Assembly (NCBI GenBank): GCA_946624985.1
Contig: CAMOSQ010000002.1
Coordinates: 27,233 to 91,232 of the forward strand
DNA: 64,000 bases
Source: an uncultured Bacillales bacterium
GTDB taxonomy: Bacteria > Bacillota_I > Bacilli_A > RF39 > UBA660
Reading direction: 5' to 3'
The notes under the pieces were generated by a model, which did no database searches, had not been told where the DNA came from, and was given only the letters and a program-made list of their open reading frames with translations. Each line of letters opens with the position of its first letter. The first letter of the stretch is position 1. The translations under genes were made by a program, and so were the position numbers. Of this stretch, positions 8,101-55,555 are shown in pieces.

Positions 8101-8143
8101 TTTGATTTTTGAGAACATAACTCAAAATAAATTTTGAGGCATA

Positions 8144-8260
8144 ATCACTTACGTGATTATCTTTTCTGCTTCATCGACTTCGTTACCTACCTTCTCCACA
8201 GACTTAAAATCCGATGGTCGCCACCGTACTCATTTACATTTTTATTTTTTCTTTTTTTGT
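8144..8260 (-). ncRNA. Candidate omega/right-end RNA scaffold of TnpB
   Basis: A GC-enriched segment lies directly 3' of the tnpB stop. Its 69-nt core (8166-8234) is repeated 68/69 at 23884-23952. The position matches known TnpB guide-RNA scaffolds. Confidence 0.5.
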
Positions 8261-9415
8261 TTATGATAATAATTCCTTCATATATAACTTTATTCCTTCA
8301 AACATAATATTCTCAGATGCATTTATATCTCTATCTAACTGTGTATGACATTTTGGACAAACATATTCTCTTATACTTAAATCTTTTGTTATTTCATTTT
8401 TATAGTCACAATGTGAACATATCTGACTGCTCGGATAAAATGTATCTATTTGATAGATTTTTTTCATTTTCCATTTTACCTTATATATTAATTGTCTTAT
8501 TATTTCGGATAGTGATGCATCTTGTATTGATTTCGCTATATGATGATTTTTAATCATATTATTTATTCTTAGGGTTTCAGTTACTATAATATCATTATTA
8601 TCAGTTATTTCTTTTGTTATTTTATGTATAGTATATTTTCTTGTATTTTTTATTTTTGAGTATAATCTAGCTAGTTTTTGTTTTGCTTTATAATAGTTAT
8701 TACTACCTTTTAGTTTCTTTGATAGTTTTCTTTGTAGTCTTTTTATTCTTTTTTCATACTTTCTAATTGTTTTATTGTTATCATATTTTTTTCCATCTGA
8801 TGTTATTACTAAGTCTTTTATTCCTAGATCTAGTCCTATTATTTTATTTGGTATTATTTTGTTTTCTTCTAATTCTTGTTCAAATACTACTGATACATAG
8901 TATTTATTATCTTTTTCTCTTGATATAGTTGAATTTATTATTCTTCCTTGTATATTTTTTAAATTCCTATACCCTCTAATTTTTACTTCTTTTAATTTTG
9001 GTAATGTTATTGTTTTATTTATTAAATCTAATTTAATGTTTTCGTATGTTTTATTTTTATACACATTAGTTACAAAGTTTGTTCTATAAGAGTTTCTGTC
9101 ATATTTACTTTTATATTTAGGATATCCTAATTTTTCTTTAAAGAATTTTTGATATGAATTATCTAAATCAAATAAAGTACATCTTAAAGACATACTATCT
9201 ACTTCTTTTAGAAATGGATATTCTACATATAGATTTTTTAAATCTTTTATACAGTCATATGAAGATAAATTTTTCTTTTCTTTTTTATATAATTCTTGTT
9301 TTTTATTTAGGTAATAATTATATACTAACCTAGTACATCCAAATGTTTTATTTATTAATATTTTTTGTTCATTTGTTGGATATAGTCTAAATTTATATGC
9401 CTTATTTATCTTCAT
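8261..9415 (-). CDS. tnpB: TnpB (IS605 OrfB-type RNA-guided nuclease)
   Basis: It starts [14 protein letters not shown]. RuvC-like residues are GLDLG, VTETLRI and DRDINASENI. The zinc ribbon is CSHCDY...CPKCH. The start is moved to the ATG at 9415. Confidence 0.85.
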   Translation of the reverse strand: MKINKAYKFRLYPTNEQKILINKTFGCTRLVYNYYLNKKQELYKKEKKNLSSYDCIKDLKNLYVEYPFLKEVDSMSLRCTLFDLDNSYQKFFKEKLGYPKYKSKYDRNSYRTNFVTNVYKNKTYENIKLDLINKTITLPKLKEVKIRGYRNLKNIQGRIINSTISREKDNKYYVSVVFEQELEENKIIPNKIIGLDLGIKDLVITSDGKKYDNNKTIRKYEKRIKRLQRKLSKKLKGSNNYYKAKQKLARLYSKIKNTRKYTIHKITKEITDNNDIIVTETLRINNMIKNHHIAKSIQDASLSEIIRQLIYKVKWKMKKIYQIDTFYPSSQICSHCDYKNEITKDLSIREYVCPKCHTQLDRDINASENIMFEGIKLYMKELLS

Positions 9416-9523
9416 ACTATCACCACCATACAAATGGTATCACACAAACAATTGTGCGTCAACTAAAAATTAATATATTTTAGAAATTTAAACGCACTTT
9501 CCTAATAAATAAAAAAAATACAT

Positions 9524-9718
9524 TTATTGTAAATGTATTAATCCTTTTGACACTTCTTCTAATGCTTTTCCAATATTCTTTTCTGATTTGTATTCATTTT
9601 CTTTCATTTGAAAATGTCCTGTTTTTTTCATTTCTTCTACTCTTTTTGAAACAATATTTACTAATAAATATTTTGATCCAACTTGTGTTAGTAATTTATC
9701 TATTGATGGATAAATCAT
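9524..9718 (-). CDS. rpoZ: DNA-directed RNA polymerase subunit omega
   Basis: MIYPSIDKLLTQVGSKYLLVNIVSKRVEEM matches the RpoZ N-terminus. An internal start was chosen. Confidence 0.8.
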   Translation of the reverse strand: MIYPSIDKLLTQVGSKYLLVNIVSKRVEEMKKTGHFQMKENEYKSEKNIGKALEEVSKGLIHLQ

Positions 9719-21679: not shown

Positions 21680-23809
21680 TTATTTTAAAGCTTCTTTTCT
21701 TGATAGATTTAGTCTTCCTCTTTTATCGTATCCTAATGATTTAACTATTATTTCGTCTCCTACTTTAACTACATCACTTGGTTTTTCTATTCTTTCTTCT
21801 GCTAAATGTGATACATGAACTAGTCCTTCTGTTCCTGGCCATAGTTCTACAAAACATCCAAAGTCTTCTACTTTTACAACTTTACCAGTGTATACTTTTC
21901 CGTCTTCTACTTCTCTTACTACTTCTTTTATCATTTCAGCAGTTTTATTTATTATTTCTTGATCACTGTGGTAGATTATTACTCTTCCATCGTCTTCTAA
22001 ATCAACTTTAACAGCATTTACATCTGTTACTGCTTTTACATTACTAGCTTCAAGAATGATTTTTGTTATCATTTCTCCACCTTTTCCGATAACGTCTTTT
22101 ATCTTATTTGGATTTATTTCGAATGTCATTGTTTTTGGTGCATATTTTGATACTTCTTTTCTTGGCTCTTTTATTTGTGCTTCTATAACATCTAGTATTT
22201 GCATTCTTGCTTTTTTAGCTTGTTCTAGTGCTCCTTTTAATATTTCTTTTGTTATTCCTTTTATTTTTATATCCATTTGAAGTGCACATATACCGTTTCT
22301 TGTTCCTGCCACTTTAAAGTCCATATCTCCTAGATGATCTTCCATACCTTGAATATCTGTTAGTATTGTATAGTCATCTCCATCTGTGATTAATCCCATA
22401 GCTATTCCTGCTACTGGTGCCTTTATTGGTACACCTGCTGCCATTAGTGCCATACATCCTGCGCATATACTTGCTTGTGATGATGAACCGTTTGATTCTA
22501 ATATTTCTGATACTACTCTTATTGTATATGGGAATTCTTCTTCTGATGGTATTACTTGAGAAAGTGCTCTTTCTCCAAGTGCACCATGTCCTATTTCTCT
22601 TCTTCCTGGTGCTCCATATCTTCCTGTTTCTCCTACTGAGAATTGTGGGAAGTTATAGTGTAGCATGAATCTTTTTTCTGCTTCTAATGATAGACCATCT
22701 AGTATTTGATGTTCTCCTAAAGCTCCAAGGGTTACTACACCTAGTGCTTGAGTTTGCCCCCTTGTAAATAGTGCTGATCCATGTGTTCTTGGAAGTAGAT
22801 CAATATCTGTTGATAATGGTCTTATTTCATCCATTGCTCTTCCGTCTGCTCTAGTATGCTCTTTAACTACTATTTTTCTAAATATTTCATATTCTATTTC
22901 TTCTAGTACTAATTTTACCTTTGTTAGTAGTTCTTTTAATTCATCGTCTTTTAAGTCTTGATTCTCATTTTCGTATTTGGCTACTACATCTTCTTTTACT
23001 TTGTCTATTGCTTCATATTTTTCTGTTTTATCAAGTATTCTCATAGCTTTGTTTAAGTTTTCTTCTGATAGGCTTCTTACTTCATTTTTAAGTTCTTCTG
23101 TTATTTCTAGAACTTCATATTCCATTTTTTCCTGTCCACATTCAGCTATTATTTTTTCTTCAAATTCACAAAGTTCTTTTACTGCTTCGTGTCCAAACAT
23201 TAGTGCATCTAACATATCATTTTCTGATACTTCTTTTGATCCACTTTCTACCATGTTTATTGCTTCTTTTGTTCCTGCTACTGTTAGTTCTATGTCGGTT
23301 TCTTCTAATTCTTCTGCGGTTGGATTTATTATAAATTCTCCGTTTATTCTACCCACTTTTACTCCGGCTATTGGACCATCGAATGGTATTTTTGATATTG
23401 ATGTAGCTAGGCTTGATCCAAACATTGCTGCTAGTTCTGGTGAGTTATCTTGATCTACTGATAAAACAGTATTTACTATTTGAACTTCATTTCTAAAGTT
23501 TTCGGGAAACATTGGTCTCATTGGTCTATCTATCATACGTGCTGCAAGTGTTGCATTGTCTGTTGGTCTTCCTTCTCTTTTTATAAATCCACCTGGTATT
23601 TTACCTACTGAGTATAGTTTTTCTTGATATAGTACCATTAGTGGAAAGAAGTCTGACAATACGTTTGCATTTTTACTTACTACTGCTGTTGATAGTATTA
23701 CTGTATCTCCATATCTTACCAATACTGCTCCGTGTGCTTGTTTTGCTAATTCTCCAATTTCTACTATTAATTTTCTTCCCCTGAAATCTAATTCATATAC
23801 TTTTTTCAT
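21680..23809 (-). CDS. pnp: Polyribonucleotide nucleotidyltransferase (PNPase)
   Basis: It has two RNase PH domains, a KH domain ([12 protein letters not shown]) and an S1 domain ([15 protein letters not shown]). Confidence 0.95.
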
Positions 23810-23864
23810 TTTTACCTCCTTAATTAGAACACAGATAAATTTTCTTACGAAAATTCATTAAGAA

Positions 23865-24101
23865 TCTCACGATTTCTTTTTTTCTGCTTCATCGACTTCG
23901 TTACCTACATTCTCCACAGACTTAAAATCCGATGGTCGCCACCGTACTCATTGTTTTTTTATGATAATAATTCTTTCATATAAAGTTTTAAACCTTAAAT
24001 CATATATTTTCCAATACAACAGCATATAAATGGTATCATACAAACAATTGTATGTCAATTAAAAATTAACCTATTTTATAATTTTTAGTATGACTTTCCT
24101 A
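23865..24101 (-). mobile_element. Miniature deletion derivative of the 8144-9504 tnpB element
   Basis: It keeps the left-end sequence (24020-24101 versus 9425-9504), the last approximately 55 nt of tnpB, and the 69-nt RNA-scaffold core at 68/69 identity (23884-23952 versus 8166-8234). The tnpB body is deleted. Confidence 0.8.
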
Positions 24102-24107
24102 TCGTAC

Positions 24108-24136
24108 AAAAAATAAAGACACTTAAAAAAAGTGCC
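24108..24136 (-). terminator. rpsO terminator
   Basis: On the minus strand a hairpin ggcactt/aagtgtc (one G-U pair) is followed by a U run, 14 nt after the rpsO stop. Confidence 0.55.
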
Positions 24137-24149
24137 TGTTTGTTTATAT

Positions 24150-24419
24150 TTACTTTCTTAATCCTAATGATTTAACTATTTCACGATATCTATTTACATC
24201 TTGTTTTGATAAGTAGTTAAGTAAGCTTCTTCTTTTACCTACTTTCTTAAGTAAACCTCTACGTGAATGGAAATCATGTTTATGTTCTTTTAAGTGTTCT
24301 GTTAATTCAGTTATTTCTTTTGTTAGAATTGCTATTTGAACTTCACATGAACCAGTATCATTAGCATCTTTACCGTATTTTTTTACGATTTCTGCTTTTG
24401 CTTCTTTTGTTAAAGCCAT
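24150..24419 (-). CDS. rpsO: 30S ribosomal protein S15
   Basis: Motifs are [16 protein letters not shown]...[29 protein letters not shown]. Confidence 0.95.
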
Positions 24420-24498
24420 TTAAATTCTCCTCTCTTTGATTCGCTTAGTTCCTAGAAATACGTTGGAGTGCGTAATTCCAAGATATAAGTACATATTA

Positions 24499-24527
24499 AA
24501 TATACAGTAAAATTTCTTTATTGTCAA
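24499..24527 (-). promoter_or_regulatory. rpsO promoter
   Basis: On the minus strand: TTGACA, a 17-nt spacer, then TATATT. Confidence 0.5.
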
Positions 24528-24539
24528 GGATTTATTTGT

Positions 24540-24560
24540 ATTAATTTTGTGTTAATTATT
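24540..24560 (+). repeat. 21-nt direct repeat, copy 1 (attaattttgtgttaattatt)
   Basis: It is identical to 24953-24973. The two copies bracket the putative type I TA module. Confidence 0.8.
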
Positions 24561-24587
24561 GACTTCTTATGTTTGTTATGTTAGAAT
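24559..24587 (+). promoter_or_regulatory. Strong sigma-A promoter of a small plus-strand RNA
   Basis: TTGACT (24559-24564), a 17-nt spacer, then TAGAAT (24582-24587). Confidence 0.6.
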
Positions 24588-24593
24588 GTATGT

Positions 24594-24716
24594 AGTGAAG
24601 CAATACTTCATATAATAAAAAAGGATATGTCTGAAGTCGTGTTCAGATGTCTTCCAAAAAATCATTTGGTGAAACACCTGAAATCAACATTAGTTGAAAT
24701 CAAGTGTTTTTCTTTT
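24594..24716 (+). ncRNA. Candidate antitoxin sRNA (type I TA), about 120 nt
   Basis: It lies between the consensus promoter and a 17-bp imperfect hairpin (24672-24709) followed by a T run. It is convergent with the small hydrophobic ORF and shares the terminator hairpin with it. Confidence 0.45.
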
Positions 24717-53229: not shown

Positions 53230-53400
53230 TTAATGATTTTCTAAATTAATATGAAGATTTAAATCTTCCTCTGTAGGTAATTCTTCTATTAGATTTTTAG
53301 GTAAATATTTTGTTAACTCGTAAGAACTAACACCAATAGGCTTGTTAATATCTTTAAGTGCATAGTCCACTGAAAATTTATTCTTATCTTTACAAAGTAG
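53230..53400 (-). pseudogene. C-terminal fragment of a YhcG/DUF1016-type PDDEXK nuclease gene split by IS insertion
   Basis: It translates to LLCKDKNKFSVDYALKDINKPIGVSSYELTKYLPKNLIEELPTEEDL. This continues the reading of 54704-55555, which ends ..YLSAVDDILAKNYKNSPI. Confidence 0.7.
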
Positions 53401-53497
53401 TGACATACTCTCACCAACGATTAGGTGGTAGCTTCTCGCGCAAGTATGCTAATGCATACAGTAAACGAGCTTAGTCCGCGTATCCCGCGAAATTATA
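53401..53497 (-). ncRNA. Candidate omega/right-end RNA scaffold of TnpB-2
   Basis: This segment is conspicuously GC-richer (..cgcgggatacgcggactaagctcg..gcgcgagaagctaccacc..) and lies directly 3' of the tnpB stop. Confidence 0.4.
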
Positions 53498-54595
53498 TTA
53501 TACGAATGCTAAACGAATACCTTCGTTTTTAATATTTATTGCTGAATTTACATCCCTATTGTGATGTGTATTACAATTAGGACAATTCCAATCTCTAATT
53601 GATAAATTCTTTGTTTCTTTATTTTGATATCCACAATAACTACATATTTGTGTACTTGCAAAGAATTTATCAACTTTGATTAGTTTTTTACCCATATTTT
53701 CTAGTTTGTATTCCAACATTCTTATAAACATTCCCCATCCGTTATCATGAATACTCATACCAAAATTTAGGCATTGTGACATAGACTGCATATTTAGGTC
53801 TTCTATGCACACAACATCATAATTATCTACAATATTTCTTGATAACTTATGTAGAAAATCTTTTCTTTGATTAGTTATATGCTCATATATATTAGCTACT
53901 CTTTTAACTTGTTTGTAATAGTTATTAGAACTTTTTATCATCCTAGATAATTTTCTCTGTTCTTTTTTTAGTTTTTCCAATGACTTTCTATAAAATCTTG
54001 GATATGTTGCTTCATTACCATTAGAATCAACATATAATTCATGCATAGAATAATCAAGTTCTATAAAACTATGCGGTATTACTTCTTGTATTTGGTTCTC
54101 ATACTCGAATAGAATACTTACATAATATTTACCAGACTTAGTTTTAGAAACAGTAGCTGATTTAAGAATATAATTATTAGGAATATTTCTATGTTGTTTT
54201 AATTTAATATATCCTATTTTAGGTAATTTGATAAAACCATTATCTATTTTAATCGTTCCATTTTGATTGTTAGTAGTATATGATTGTTTATTTTTTCTAG
54301 ATTTGAATTTAGGGAATTTAATTTTATTTTTTCTAAAGAAATTATTATAAGCAGACTCAAGATTTAATTGTACATTAGATAAAGCCAAACTATCTACTTC
54401 TTTTAAGAATTCATATTCTTTCTTATACATAGCTGGAGTATTTTTCAATTTGATACCAAATTCTTTATAATAGTTTATCTTATCTTCTAGCATCTTGTTA
54501 TAAATAAATCTACAACACCCAAATGTTTTAGATAATATTATTTGCTGTTCATTAGTTGGATATAATCTAAACTTATAAGCAATATTCTTCTTCAT
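53498..54595 (-). CDS. tnpB: TnpB (IS605 OrfB-type RNA-guided nuclease), second family
   Basis: It starts [14 protein letters not shown]. Other motifs are [24 protein letters not shown] and CSYCGY..CPNCN. Confidence 0.85.
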
Positions 54596-54703
54596 AATAT
54601 CTACCTTCAATCATTAGATAATATTATAACGAATTTATGTTTGCGTGTCAACAATAAATTAATTATTTCTATAATGAATTATTTTTTTTCACAATTCATC
54701 CCA

Positions 54704-55555
54704 CTACTTATAGAAGATAGGGGAATTCTTGTAATTTTTAGCTAAAATATCATCTACAGCAGATAAATAAAAATTCATTTTCCCGGCATATTCTGGTTTA
54801 AATTTAGTATTTTTTAATTCTATTACTACATAACAATGTAATTTTATATGATAAAATAACAAATCAATGAAATAATCTTCATTATCAATTACTAATCTAT
54901 ATTGATTACCTACAAAACTAAATCCATTACCTAGCTCAAGCAAAGTCATTTTAATTTTATCAACCATAGCATTTTCTAATTCTTTTTCTTTATAATATTT
55001 TCCTAGAGTAGTAATATCAAATATATAAGGATCTTTCATAATTTCGTTAGCCATTTTACTTTGAACATCTGGAAGTGTTTGATTAAAATTATTGGGTTTA
55101 TTGTTTCTATTTTGTCTAAAATATGCATTATATTTTATCTCATCATTTAAATCATAATACCCCCAACCATTAATTGCAGTTTGATTAATATACCAAAGTC
55201 TTTCATCATCACTTTTAACTTTATCAAATATAAGTATATTATGCGACCAAGGAATTAGTGCAGAAGCCTTCTGCACTTTTTCATTTTTTGAACAAACCAA
55301 ATAATATTTTCTCATGTTTTTTAAATTTCTCACTGAAAATCCTTTCATATCAGGATATAATAGTTTTAACTCAATTGACATATTACTTATAAAATTATTT
55401 CCATATTTAGAATTTTCAACAAGAGTTTTACCAATATAAAAATATAAATTTAATAAACTCTTATTTGCATTTTGAAATATTTCTGATTTAGTATTATCTA
55501 TTTTATTTTTTATATCATTAATAATATTTTTAAAATTTTTTTCTAAAGTTTGCAC
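54704..55555 (-). pseudogene. N-terminal 283 codons of the YhcG/DUF1016-type nuclease gene
   Basis: It has the YhcG N-terminal pattern (YFYIGKTLVEN..YGNNFI..GFSVRNLKNMRKYY..IPWSHN) and the PDDEXK core (DLLFYH..VVIELK). It runs into the IS end. Confidence 0.7.

What the first reader, a model, noticed from the sequence alone, without database searches (positions are those of the whole stretch)
23865..24101. Miniature tnpB-deleted IS derivative retaining an omega-RNA-like scaffold, lodged between rpsO and pnp
A 237-bp element reproduces both ends of the 1.36-kb tnpB element at 8144-9504. Identity is 68/69 over the structured 3' core. It also reproduces the last approximately 55 nt of tnpB and about 80 nt of the left end, but the nuclease ORF is deleted. 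It sits right after the rpsO terminator, in the same orientation as rpsO and pnp, so it forms part of the pnp leader. Such a stand-alone guide-RNA scaffold could be serviced in trans by the intact TnpB. It could also have been domesticated as a structured element affecting pnp expression, which is classically autoregulated through its leader.
Basis: partly seen in the sequence, partly recalled or inferred. Interest (0 to 1): 0.6.

Follow-up and report, generated by a model that had tools for sequence, protein, structure and literature searches.

The report
Gene-less mini-transposon upstream of pnp
A 275-base, protein-less offshoot of a TnpB jumping gene, still carrying the transposon's promoter and guide-RNA scaffold, has landed between the rpsO terminator and the pnp ribosome-binding site in some strains of an uncultured gut bacterium; elements of this kind have been described before.

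Summary
All the genes involved lie on the minus strand. The element is longer than reported: about 24100 down to 23826, roughly 275 nt. Its right end runs through two more hairpins and stops 16 nt before the pnp start codon.

It is a PATE, a gene-less derivative of an ISDra2-like, tnpB-only IS200/IS605 element. It keeps four parts:
- the left end, with a TTGACA/17/TACCAT promoter and a hairpin;
- a 55-nt tnpB stub;
- a complete omega-RNA-type scaffold, 71/72 identical to the full copy and supported by strong covariation across 36 homologues;
- the right end.

The genome holds 2 full copies, 4 minis that share one deletion junction, and 1 relic.

The insertion is recent and polymorphic. A near-identical goat-gut strain has the empty site. 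A congener and 22 other relatives have rpsO-pnp spacers without the element, mostly 44-160 nt. So it is not a conserved pnp leader.

Use of the scaffold by the intact resident TnpB in trans is plausible but untested. RNA contigs gave no cover. No Y1 TnpA was found in this 77%-complete genome.

PATEs that encode omega RNAs are already in print (Meers et al. 2023), and this scan has logged 33 earlier notes of this kind in at least 25 other genomes. This is a new member of a known kind.

The parts
24150..24419 (-). rpsO (ribosomal protein S15), the upstream gene
   Evidence: ORF of 89 aa. Pfam Ribosomal_S15, E 9.5e-36.
24108..24137 (-). rpsO intrinsic terminator: an 8-bp stem at 24137->24117, followed by a T-rich tail
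   Evidence: Terminator scan. The same hairpin and T-run are conserved in relatives' spacers.
24101..24107 (-). Left flank GTACGAT between the T-run and the element. Its last bases, (C)GAT, stand where the target/TAM motif should be.
   Evidence: Alignment of six copies. Other copies have TTTAT, ATAAT or ATAT here. ISDra2 uses TTGAT. The exact boundary is uncertain by a few nt.
24022..24100 (-). Left end (LE), 65/78 identical to the LE of the full copy. It contains a promoter-like site (-35 TTGACA at 24058-24053, 17-nt spacer with TG, -10 TACCAT at 24035-24030). A subterminal hairpin at 24054-24037 is embedded in that site.
   Evidence: for homology; for the promoter scan (10 of 12, TG present). 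The TTGACA/17/-10 arrangement with an internal palindrome recurs in the LEs of distant family members. An A-T to G-C compensatory change in the hairpin separates the mini from the full copy (read).
24014..24021 (-). Deletion junction where LE sequence meets the tnpB 3' stub. The same junction is present in all four minis.
   Evidence: Alignments.
23959..24013 (-). Remnant of the last ~55 nt of tnpB (44/53 identical to the full copy). It is no longer a usable reading frame.
   Evidence: No ORF of 60 aa or more lies between 23810 and 24149.
23855..23952 (-). Conserved omega-RNA-type core (model R1). It includes helix 1, a long-range helix, helix 3 and right-end hairpin 1 with a GNRA-like loop.
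   Evidence: 71/72 identical to the full copy over 23953-23881. Covariation on 36 homologues: 94.4% of cells paired against 35-50% in slid controls, and 13 of 21 pairs with changes on both sides. R1 score 99.4 bits.
23826..23878 (-). Right end (RE): hairpin 1 (23878-23860), hairpin 2 (23856-23837) and terminal TGTTCT (23831-23826)
   Evidence: Six-copy alignment. 51/55 identical to the C15 mini, but only 31/40 alignable to the full copy. TTTGTTCT ends the element in many distant homologues. Hairpin 1 shows changes on both sides in 7 of 7 pairs.
23810..23825 (-). The 16 nt that follow the RE, which is the position from which an omega-RNA guide would be drawn. It contains the pnp Shine-Dalgarno AGGAGG (23820-23815).
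   Evidence: Position only, by analogy with ISDra2, where about 16 nt of flank form the guide. It is unique in the genome as a 12-nt seed (1 exact hit).
21680..23809 (-). pnp (polynucleotide phosphorylase), the downstream gene
   Evidence: ORF of 709 aa. Pfam RNase_PH, PNPase, KH and S1.
8112..9504 (-). Full-length parent-type element: LE, tnpB (8261-9415, 384 aa from ATG), omega-RNA core (8137-8234) and RE ending in TGTTCT at 8112
   Evidence: TnpB aligns over nearly its whole length to ISDra2 TnpB (8bf8, E 2.4e-70), with the three aligned RuvC positions and both CxxC pairs kept.

Best explanation
The element is a PATE (palindrome-associated transposable element). That is a non-autonomous, gene-less derivative of an ISDra2-like, tnpB-only IS200/IS605-family insertion sequence.

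Origin (shown). One internal deletion removed almost all of tnpB. It kept the left end (promoter plus hairpin), the last 55 nt of tnpB, the whole omega-RNA scaffold and the right end. That deleted form then spread to at least four sites in this genome.

Insertion site (shown). The pnp copy went in at the T-rich tail of the rpsO terminator. This family uses that kind of site repeatedly, which also explains why every copy points the same way as the upstream gene. The insertion is recent and still polymorphic among strains.

Inferred consequences.
(i) The element is transcribed in the sense direction, from its own LE promoter and by read-through from rpsO. It therefore now forms essentially the whole 5' leader of pnp and probably supplies a promoter.
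(ii) That transcript contains a complete guide-RNA scaffold followed by the pnp ribosome-binding region as the would-be guide. The intact TnpB of the two full copies could load it in trans and cut empty-site alleles. That would favour retention of the insertion (homing), as proposed for PATEs.
(iii) Any effect on pnp expression is a by-product, not an evolved regulatory function.
For: Anatomy and copy number:
- LE, stub, core and RE are homologous to the full copy at 8112-9504.
- The genome holds 2 full copies, 4 minis with the same junction and 1 relic.

Structured scaffold:
- On 36 homologues, 94.4% of cells are paired, against 35-50% when the partners are slid.
- 13 of 21 pairs have changes on both sides. 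0 of 500 shuffles reach the observed covariation score.
- The pnp copy scores 99.4 bits, against 102.8-104.2 for the full copies.

Recent, polymorphic insertion:
- Goat-gut run X3: one contig joins 23820 to 24105 with two letters between. It has 2 differences in 229 nt on the pnp side.
- Sheep-gut run X2 holds both a more divergent empty allele and the occupied allele (150 nt with 0 differences; 346 nt with 7).
- Congener G002 has a 46-nt spacer.
- 21 of 23 relatives have 44-160 nt spacers. The other 2 carry an unrelated ORF.
- The relatives' matches to the element lie on other contigs.

Target preference:
- A T-run followed by a short AT-ending motif lies directly before the LE in 6 of 6 own copies and in 7 of 13 other full copies inspected.
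- All 6 own copies are co-directional with both neighbouring genes.

Trans partner:
- TnpB aligns to ISDra2 TnpB at E 2.4e-70, with D196, E280 and D363 at the three aligned RuvC positions.

Promoter:
- The LE carries TTGACA/17/TACCAT with TG, 10 of 12. This arrangement is conserved in the LEs of distant family members.

Generality:
- Among relatives' loci with 1500 nt upstream, 7 of 17 cores lack a full tnpB.
- 6 credible tnpB-less cores from other organisms were found in metagenome contigs.

Literature (passages read):
- PATEs derive from IS605-type elements by core deletion (PMC3119063).
- PATEs 'often encode omega RNAs' that need TnpB in trans (PMC10055086).
- The ISDra2 guide RNA is about 150 nt from the tnpB 3' end and RE, plus about 16 nt of flank (PMC8612924).
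Against: - There is no direct evidence that the element is transcribed or that an omega RNA matures from it.
- No Y1 TnpA was found in this genome, which is 77% complete. The TnpA genes found in 15 of 81 family genomes are not linked to this tnpB clade in the 6 loci fetched. The mobilising enzyme is therefore unidentified.
- The RE hairpins of the pnp copy are a different variant from those of the resident full copies. Compatibility with the resident TnpB is assumed from conserved shape only.
- The LE and RE hairpins do not resemble each other. In textbook IS608-type ends they do (recalled).
- The left flank of this copy (ACGAT) departs from the TTTAT/ATAAT seen at other copies.
- The empty alleles differ from a perfectly scarless junction by a few nt. 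The boundaries are therefore good to about +/-6 nt from that evidence alone.
- Folding the single sequence is no better than folding shuffles (z -0.5).
- No Rfam family matches.
Confidence: 0.75

Rival explanations
1. Inert fossil. The element is the same PATE by descent, but this copy does nothing. It can no longer move, its RNA is not loaded by the resident TnpB, and it persists only by drift until it is deleted.
For: - No TnpA was found in the genome.
- Sibling minis carry 4, 7 and 4 private changes in the otherwise near-invariant core, which shows relaxed constraint on minis.
- The minis are only 79-88% identical to one another, so they are not a fresh burst.
- The RE hairpin variant differs from that of the resident full copies.
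- Hairpin 1 of the pnp copy has a 1-nt deletion.
Against: - The pnp copy has 0 private changes in 73 core columns, against 9 in 177 non-core columns. About 3.7 would be expected at the non-core rate, so this is a weak hint of constraint.
- Its model score equals that of the full copies.
- Two intact tnpB copies are present.
- The occupied allele is found with 0 differences over 150 nt in a run of another study and host.
Confidence: 0.17
2. Exapted pnp leader or promoter. The insertion has been kept because its LE promoter and structured RNA now control pnp. For example, TnpB or PNPase might bind the leader and mask the adjacent Shine-Dalgarno sequence.
For: - The RE ends 16 nt before the pnp ATG, so the would-be guide covers the Shine-Dalgarno sequence (coordinates).
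- The LE promoter points at pnp.
- Relatives have no room for a separate pnp promoter in spacers of 44-66 nt.
- The core of this copy is unusually well kept.
Against: - The insertion is polymorphic among near-identical strains and is missing from the congener and 22 other relatives.
- The same family inserts at terminator tails next to unrelated genes, so the position follows from target choice.
- No expression data were obtained.
Confidence: 0.07
3. A conserved, IS-unrelated pnp leader that merely resembles IS ends.
For: None found.
Against: - The segment is absent from the rpsO-pnp spacer of all 23 relatives examined, and an empty allele exists in a near-identical strain.
- The segment occurs at three other loci and, as ends, in two tnpB elements.
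Confidence: 0.01

Closest known systems
PATEs (palindrome-associated transposable elements) of IS200/IS605. Named in Haloquadratum walsbyi (Dyall-Smith et al. 2011, PMC3119063). PATE-like minimal elements that encode omega RNAs were noted in Geobacillus stearothermophilus (Meers et al. 2023, PMC10055086).
   Same: - It is gene-less.
- It derives from a tnpB element by internal deletion.
- It keeps both ends with subterminal hairpins.
- It has no terminal inverted repeats and no target duplication.
- It occurs in several copies and shows strain-specific insertion.
[quoted passage not shown]
   Different: - It comes from a different host lineage (small-genome uncultured gut or rumen Bacilli) and a different IS subfamily.
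- No cognate TnpA was identified.
- It carries the tnpB promoter of the LE.
- This copy sits directly against the ribosome-binding site of an essential-type gene.
ISDra2 (Deinococcus radiodurans) TnpB and its reRNA/omega RNA (Karvelis et al. 2021, PMC8612924; structures 8bf8, 8exa, 8h1j)
   Same: - The resident TnpB aligns over about 370 residues (E 2.4e-70) with the three aligned RuvC positions kept.
- The RNA module lies at the tnpB 3' end plus RE and is followed by flank.
- The target-side motif ends in AT; the pnp copy has CGAT against TTGAT in ISDra2.
   Different: - ISDra2 is autonomous, with tnpA and tnpB. Here the full copies are tnpB-only and the finding has no gene at all.
- The RNA sequence is unrelated at the level of any Rfam model.
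- No binding or cleavage was tested.
E. coli rpsO-pnp leader (RNase III-processed hairpin, PNPase autoregulation; recalled)
   Same: It is a structured RNA-coding segment between the rpsO terminator and pnp, in the sense orientation.
   Different: It is not conserved in relatives, it is a mobile-element insertion, and no RNase III-type leader hairpin was identified. It is a resemblance of position only.
IStrons (IS605/IS607 fused to a group I intron; Zedaveinyte et al. 2023 preprint, 10.1101/2023.11.20.567912)
   Same: They are tnpB-family elements of low-GC Firmicutes, with PATE derivatives reported.
   Different: No group I intron is present: there is no Rfam hit and the LE is only about 80 nt.

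Membership tests
PATE (gene-less IS200/IS605 derivative) | Too short to encode, and does not encode, a transposase or TnpB | tested here: met
   The element is about 275 nt. No ORF of 60 aa or more lies in 23810-24149. The tnpB stub is 55 nt.
PATE (gene-less IS200/IS605 derivative) | Both ends homologous to the LE and RE of a full IS605-type element | tested here: met
   LE is 65/78 identical to the full copy. The core is 71/72 identical. The RE hairpins plus terminal TGTTCT are shared with family members. A full tnpB with this RE variant exists in metagenome locus L143.
PATE (gene-less IS200/IS605 derivative) | Subterminal palindromes, no terminal inverted repeats, no target-site duplication | tested here: met
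   The LE hairpin lies at 24054-24037 and the RE hairpins at 23878-23837. The flanks GTACGAT and AATTAAGG are not a duplication. The two termini match at only about 5 of 8 positions when one is reverse-complemented (read).
PATE (gene-less IS200/IS605 derivative) | Evidence of mobility: several copies, or strain-specific insertion with an empty site | tested here: met
   Four minis share one junction at four loci. Empty-site contigs occur in runs X3 and X2.
PATE (gene-less IS200/IS605 derivative) | Mobilised in trans by a Y1 (HUH) TnpA | tested here: inconclusive
   PF01797 has 0 matches in the own genome, which is 77% complete. It matches 15 of 81 family genomes, but only 1 of the 6 loci fetched has a tnpB, at 31% identity.
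TnpB omega RNA (reRNA) | Encoded by the 3' end of tnpB plus the RE, and ending at the transposon boundary | tested here: met
   In the full copies the R1 core lies at 8137-8234, downstream of the tnpB stop and inside the RE. Of 17 relatives' loci with 1500 nt upstream, 10 have a full tnpB directly upstream.
TnpB omega RNA (reRNA) | Conserved secondary structure supported by covariation | tested here: met
   94.4% of cells paired, 13 of 21 pairs with changes on both sides, and slid controls at 35-50%. The same hairpins could also act as single-stranded DNA during transposition.
TnpB omega RNA (reRNA) | Expressed, bound by TnpB, with a guide of about 16 nt from the flank | not testable with these tools
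   Only contigs of low-depth metatranscriptomes were available, so expression could not be judged. Binding needs an experiment.
TnpB omega RNA (reRNA) | Match to a curated RNA family | tested here: not met
   No Rfam 15 match at gathering score in the window except the S15 leader. No match at E up to 10 in 23700-24250. I did not check whether Rfam holds a model for this omega-RNA subfamily.
MITE in the strict sense | Terminal inverted repeats and target-site duplication | tested here: not met
   Neither is present. PATE is therefore the correct label.
Conserved pnp autoregulatory leader | Present at the rpsO-pnp spacer across relatives | tested here: not met
   0 of 23 relatives have it, and an empty allele occurs in a near-identical strain.
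IStron | Group I intron fused to the IS left end | tested here: not met
   No intron family was found by Rfam.

The most novel reading that the evidence does not exclude
The insertion has been co-opted. pnp is now driven by the transposon's LE promoter. Its Shine-Dalgarno sequence is the 'guide' segment of a leader-embedded omega RNA. TnpB loading, or 3' trimming by PNPase itself, would then compete with pnp translation and couple the level of an RNA-decay enzyme to transposon activity.
Probability: 0.07. Interest if true: 0.55.

Novelty: new member of a known kind. Interest (0 to 1): 0.25.

Why it matters
It matters mainly as a clean, well-bounded example. It shows a guide-RNA-bearing PATE with its parent copies, sibling copies, an empty-site allele and an occupied allele in independent gut metagenomes.

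It also shows a target habit: the T-rich tail of intrinsic terminators. That habit accounts for both the position and the orientation of every copy.

It is a caution for annotation too. In these small, compact genomes such an insertion can replace the entire leader of a housekeeping gene and bring in a promoter. Spacer structure next to pnp should therefore not be read as a conserved regulatory RNA.

It does not open a new question about TnpB biology. The idea that PATEs encode omega RNAs served in trans is already published.

Tried and rejected
- Rfam: the only match in the window is the S15 leader, and nothing matches 23700-24250 even at E up to 10.
- Single-sequence folding of the mini and of the full-copy 3' region is no better than folding shuffles (z -0.50 and -0.64). 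Structure was therefore judged only by comparison.
- Expression: the two RNA runs laid (X7, X14; contigs only, depth 2-7) have contigs on rpsO (24134-24402 with 0 differences; 24229-24472). No contig lies on 23820-24105. This says nothing either way.
- Cognate transposase: none in the own genome. The family-level TnpA loci are not attached to this tnpB clade.
- Off-target idea: the 12-nt guide seed has 1 exact match in the genome (itself) and 19 other hits with one mismatch, some next to TAM-like pentamers. No perfect second target exists. Dropped.
- Constraint on the pnp copy's core: 0 private changes in 73 columns against 9 in 177. This is too few events to carry a claim.
- IStron, strict MITE and conserved-leader readings are rejected (see the membership tests).
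- Paper search for 'standalone' or 'orphan' omega RNAs gave nothing more specific than the PATE passages (listing only).
- Earlier scan notes by sequence: none.
- Not used: protein database searches, structure prediction and complex prediction. The proteins are of known families, and a binding claim between TnpB and an RNA cannot be tested with those tools.

Full report
1. WHAT IS THERE

Every gene relevant to the finding is on the minus strand: rpsO at 24150-24419, pnp at 21680-23809, and a 384-aa TnpB at 8261-9415. Pfam confirms Ribosomal_S15, the RNase_PH/PNPase/KH/S1 set of PNPase, and OrfB_IS605 + HTH_OrfB_IS605 + Cas12f1-like_TNB for TnpB.

Identity of the mini to the full copy, by segment:
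- left end: 65/78;
- last 55 nt of tnpB: 44/53;
- structured core: 71/72.

The window lies in an 842-kb, 27% GC, 17-contig genome that is 77% complete. Titles of the nearest public records call such genomes uncultured Bacilli from animal guts.

2. TRUE EXTENT

BLAST within the genome finds:
- two full copies, 96% identical to each other (one inside the window, one beyond it);
- four miniature copies: this one, plus copies on contigs C15, C4 and C11;
- one short relic on C10.

After the core come two hairpins and a conserved terminal TGTTCT.

The hairpins exist in two versions, with compensating changes on both arms. The pnp, C15 and C4 minis carry one version. The C11 mini and both full copies carry the other.

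The element runs from 24100 or 24101 to 23826, about 275 nt. Its last base is 16 nt from the pnp ATG and 5 nt from the AGGAGG. The full element spans 8112-9504.

All four minis share the same junction between the left end and the tnpB stub. So one deletion product spread afterwards. They are not four independent decays.

3. THE RNA MODULE

A scan of metagenome contigs with an invariant 17-mer returned 115 loci.
- 50 of the 115 have real similarity to the core.
- 30 of the 50 lie directly after a TnpB homologue, and 20 do not.
- 11 of the 20 have at least 500 nt upstream.
- Three of those 11 are 100% identical to this genome's own contigs and so are not independent (a fourth such locus, L075, has almost no upstream).
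- Two more of the 11 are weak matches.
- That leaves six credible tnpB-less cores from other organisms.

On an alignment of 36 non-identical homologues I wrote four helices and counted pairs:
- 94.4% of cells are standard pairs, against 35-50% with the partners slid by 1-3 columns.
- 13 of 21 pairs show changes on both sides.
- 0 of 500 shuffles reach the observed covariation score.
- RNAalifold independently proposed the same helices on A2.

A covariance model built from this alignment scores the own-genome copies as follows: the full copies 104.2 and 102.8 bits, C11 100.2, the pnp copy 99.4, C15 94.8, C4 86.4 and the C10 relic 44.6.

The model finds the module in 20 of 150 genomes of the same taxonomic family, G000 included. 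It does not find it in the congener G002. Among 17 relatives' loci with 1500 nt upstream available, 10 have a full tnpB, 2 have only a stub and 5 have none.

The layout matches the ISDra2 guide RNA: the tnpB 3' end plus RE, followed by flank. That RNA is about 150 nt plus about 16 nt of flank (PMC8612924, passages). The mini keeps about 188 nt from the junction to the RE end, which is enough for the whole scaffold. No Rfam family matches.

4. THE INSERTION IS RECENT AND POLYMORPHIC

I fetched the rpsO locus from 30 relatives. 28 had rpsO, and 23 of those had pnp within the locus.
- In 21 of the 23 the spacer is 44-160 nt.
- In the other 2 it is 398 and 613 nt and holds an unrelated ORF.
- In the window it is 340 nt.
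- The congener G002 has 46 nt: the same terminator hairpin and T-run, followed at once by AGGAGG.
- The relatives' weak matches to the element lie on other contigs.

Public runs were then laid on 23300-24700.
- In goat-gut run X3, one contig joins 23820 to 24105 with two letters between. It has 2 differences in 229 nt on the pnp side and 6 in 102 on the rpsO side. This is an empty site in a near-identical strain.
- Sheep-gut run X2 holds a more divergent empty allele, with seven letters between 23820 and 24109.
- X2, from another study and year, also holds the occupied allele: 23780-23929 with 0 differences and 23919-24264 with 7.
- The empty junctions differ from a perfectly scarless one by a few nt, so this evidence fixes the boundaries only to about +/-6 nt.

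The multi-copy alignment gives the sharper limits.

5. WHY THIS SITE AND THIS ORIENTATION

A run of 6-9 T, followed by 4-8 AT-rich bases ending in AT, lies directly before the left end in 6 of 6 own copies. The pnp copy has GTACGAT there. At least five of the six also have a hairpin before the T-run, so the site is the tail of the upstream gene's terminator.

The same arrangement, with the LE starting (T/A)AGGAAAGT, is visible in 7 of 13 other full copies inspected from other genomes.

All six own copies are co-directional with both neighbouring genes. IS200/IS605 elements insert 3' of a short oriented target motif without duplication (PMC8612924). A target that overlaps terminator tails therefore explains both position and orientation without invoking selection. 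This is inference.

6. HOW IT MOST LIKELY WORKS

Shown:
- a PATE by anatomy, copy number and empty site;
- a structured, family-wide conserved scaffold;
- an intact potential partner. The resident TnpB aligns with ISDra2 TnpB (8bf8) at E 2.4e-70. D196, E280 and D363 sit opposite D191, E278 and D361, and both CxxC pairs are present. D191 is confirmed as a RuvC active-site residue. The roles of E278 and D361 are recalled.

Inferred:
- The LE carries TTGACA, a 17-nt spacer with TG, and TACCAT (10 of 12). This arrangement is conserved in distant LEs, so it is probably the tnpB promoter.
- In the mini this promoter now reads through the scaffold into pnp. Read-through from rpsO would do the same.
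- The element is thus practically the whole pnp leader.
- The 16 nt after the RE, which include the Shine-Dalgarno sequence, are where a guide would come from.
- Loaded on TnpB in trans, such an RNA would direct cutting of empty-site alleles and favour retention. This is the model published for PATEs (PMC10055086, passages).

I found no transposase for the family here.

7. AGAINST A DOMESTICATED pnp REGULATOR

The insertion is polymorphic, it is missing from the congener, and its position is what the family's target habit predicts.

One weak point the other way: the pnp copy has no private change in 73 core columns against 9 in 177 elsewhere. Its siblings have 4, 7 and 4 in the core. That is compatible with constraint, youth or gene conversion. 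The number of events is too small to decide.

8. COMPARISON WITH WHAT IS KNOWN, AND NOVELTY

PATEs were defined as IS605-type derivatives with near-terminal palindromes, no inverted repeats and no duplications. Some arose by core deletion and some retain C-terminal coding remnants (PMC3119063, passages).

Meers et al. state that PATEs often encode omega RNAs that need TnpB from other elements. An IStron-derived PATE is shown in the Zedaveinyte preprint.

This scan has logged 33 earlier notes of this kind in at least 25 other genomes. None is on similar sequence.

The finding is therefore a new member of a known kind. Its local interest is the documented empty and occupied alleles, the terminator-tail targeting, and the fact that it abuts the pnp ribosome-binding site.

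Noticed in passing
window 53230-55555 (-): A second, unrelated tnpB element (370-aa TnpB at 53498-54610, with its own GC-rich 3' structured region) splits a YhcG/DUF1016 PDDEXK nuclease gene. The N-terminal part is 283 aa (54704-55555) and the C-terminal part 58 aa (53230-53406). Pfam matches YhcG_C positions 2-111 and 114-157 respectively.
   Followed up: partly
window 24108-24137 and 9505-9535; G000 C15:6160-6194, C4:25216-25260, C11:25400-25440: Every copy of this IS family in the genome (6 of 6), and 7 of 13 full copies inspected from other genomes, sit directly 3' of a T-run, usually the tail of a terminator hairpin. This suggests a terminator-tail target preference, which would fix their orientation relative to the upstream gene.
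   Followed up: partly
window 23837-23878 versus 8120-8165: The two right-end hairpins occur in two versions with compensating changes on both arms. The C11 mini shares the minis' deletion junction but carries the full copies' hairpin version. This suggests recombination or gene conversion between minis and full copies.
   Followed up: no
G000 C10:22682-22773 (outside the window): A degenerate, isolated relic of the omega-RNA core (44.6 bits with model R1).
   Followed up: no
L029 (G011) and L033 (G015), rpsO-pnp spacers: Two relatives have a 613-nt and a 398-nt rpsO-pnp spacer that holds an extra small ORF, unrelated to the element.
   Followed up: no
window 24363-24488 (-): The Rfam S15 leader (RF00114, 40.6 bits, just above its gathering score of 39.5) lies upstream of and overlaps the start of rpsO.
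   Followed up: no
G000 C1:143726-143742, C2:27825-27846 and others: Sequences one or two mismatches away from the 16-nt would-be guide occur at other genes' ribosome-binding sites, some behind TAM-like pentamers (TTGAT, CTTAT). None is a perfect match.
   Followed up: partly
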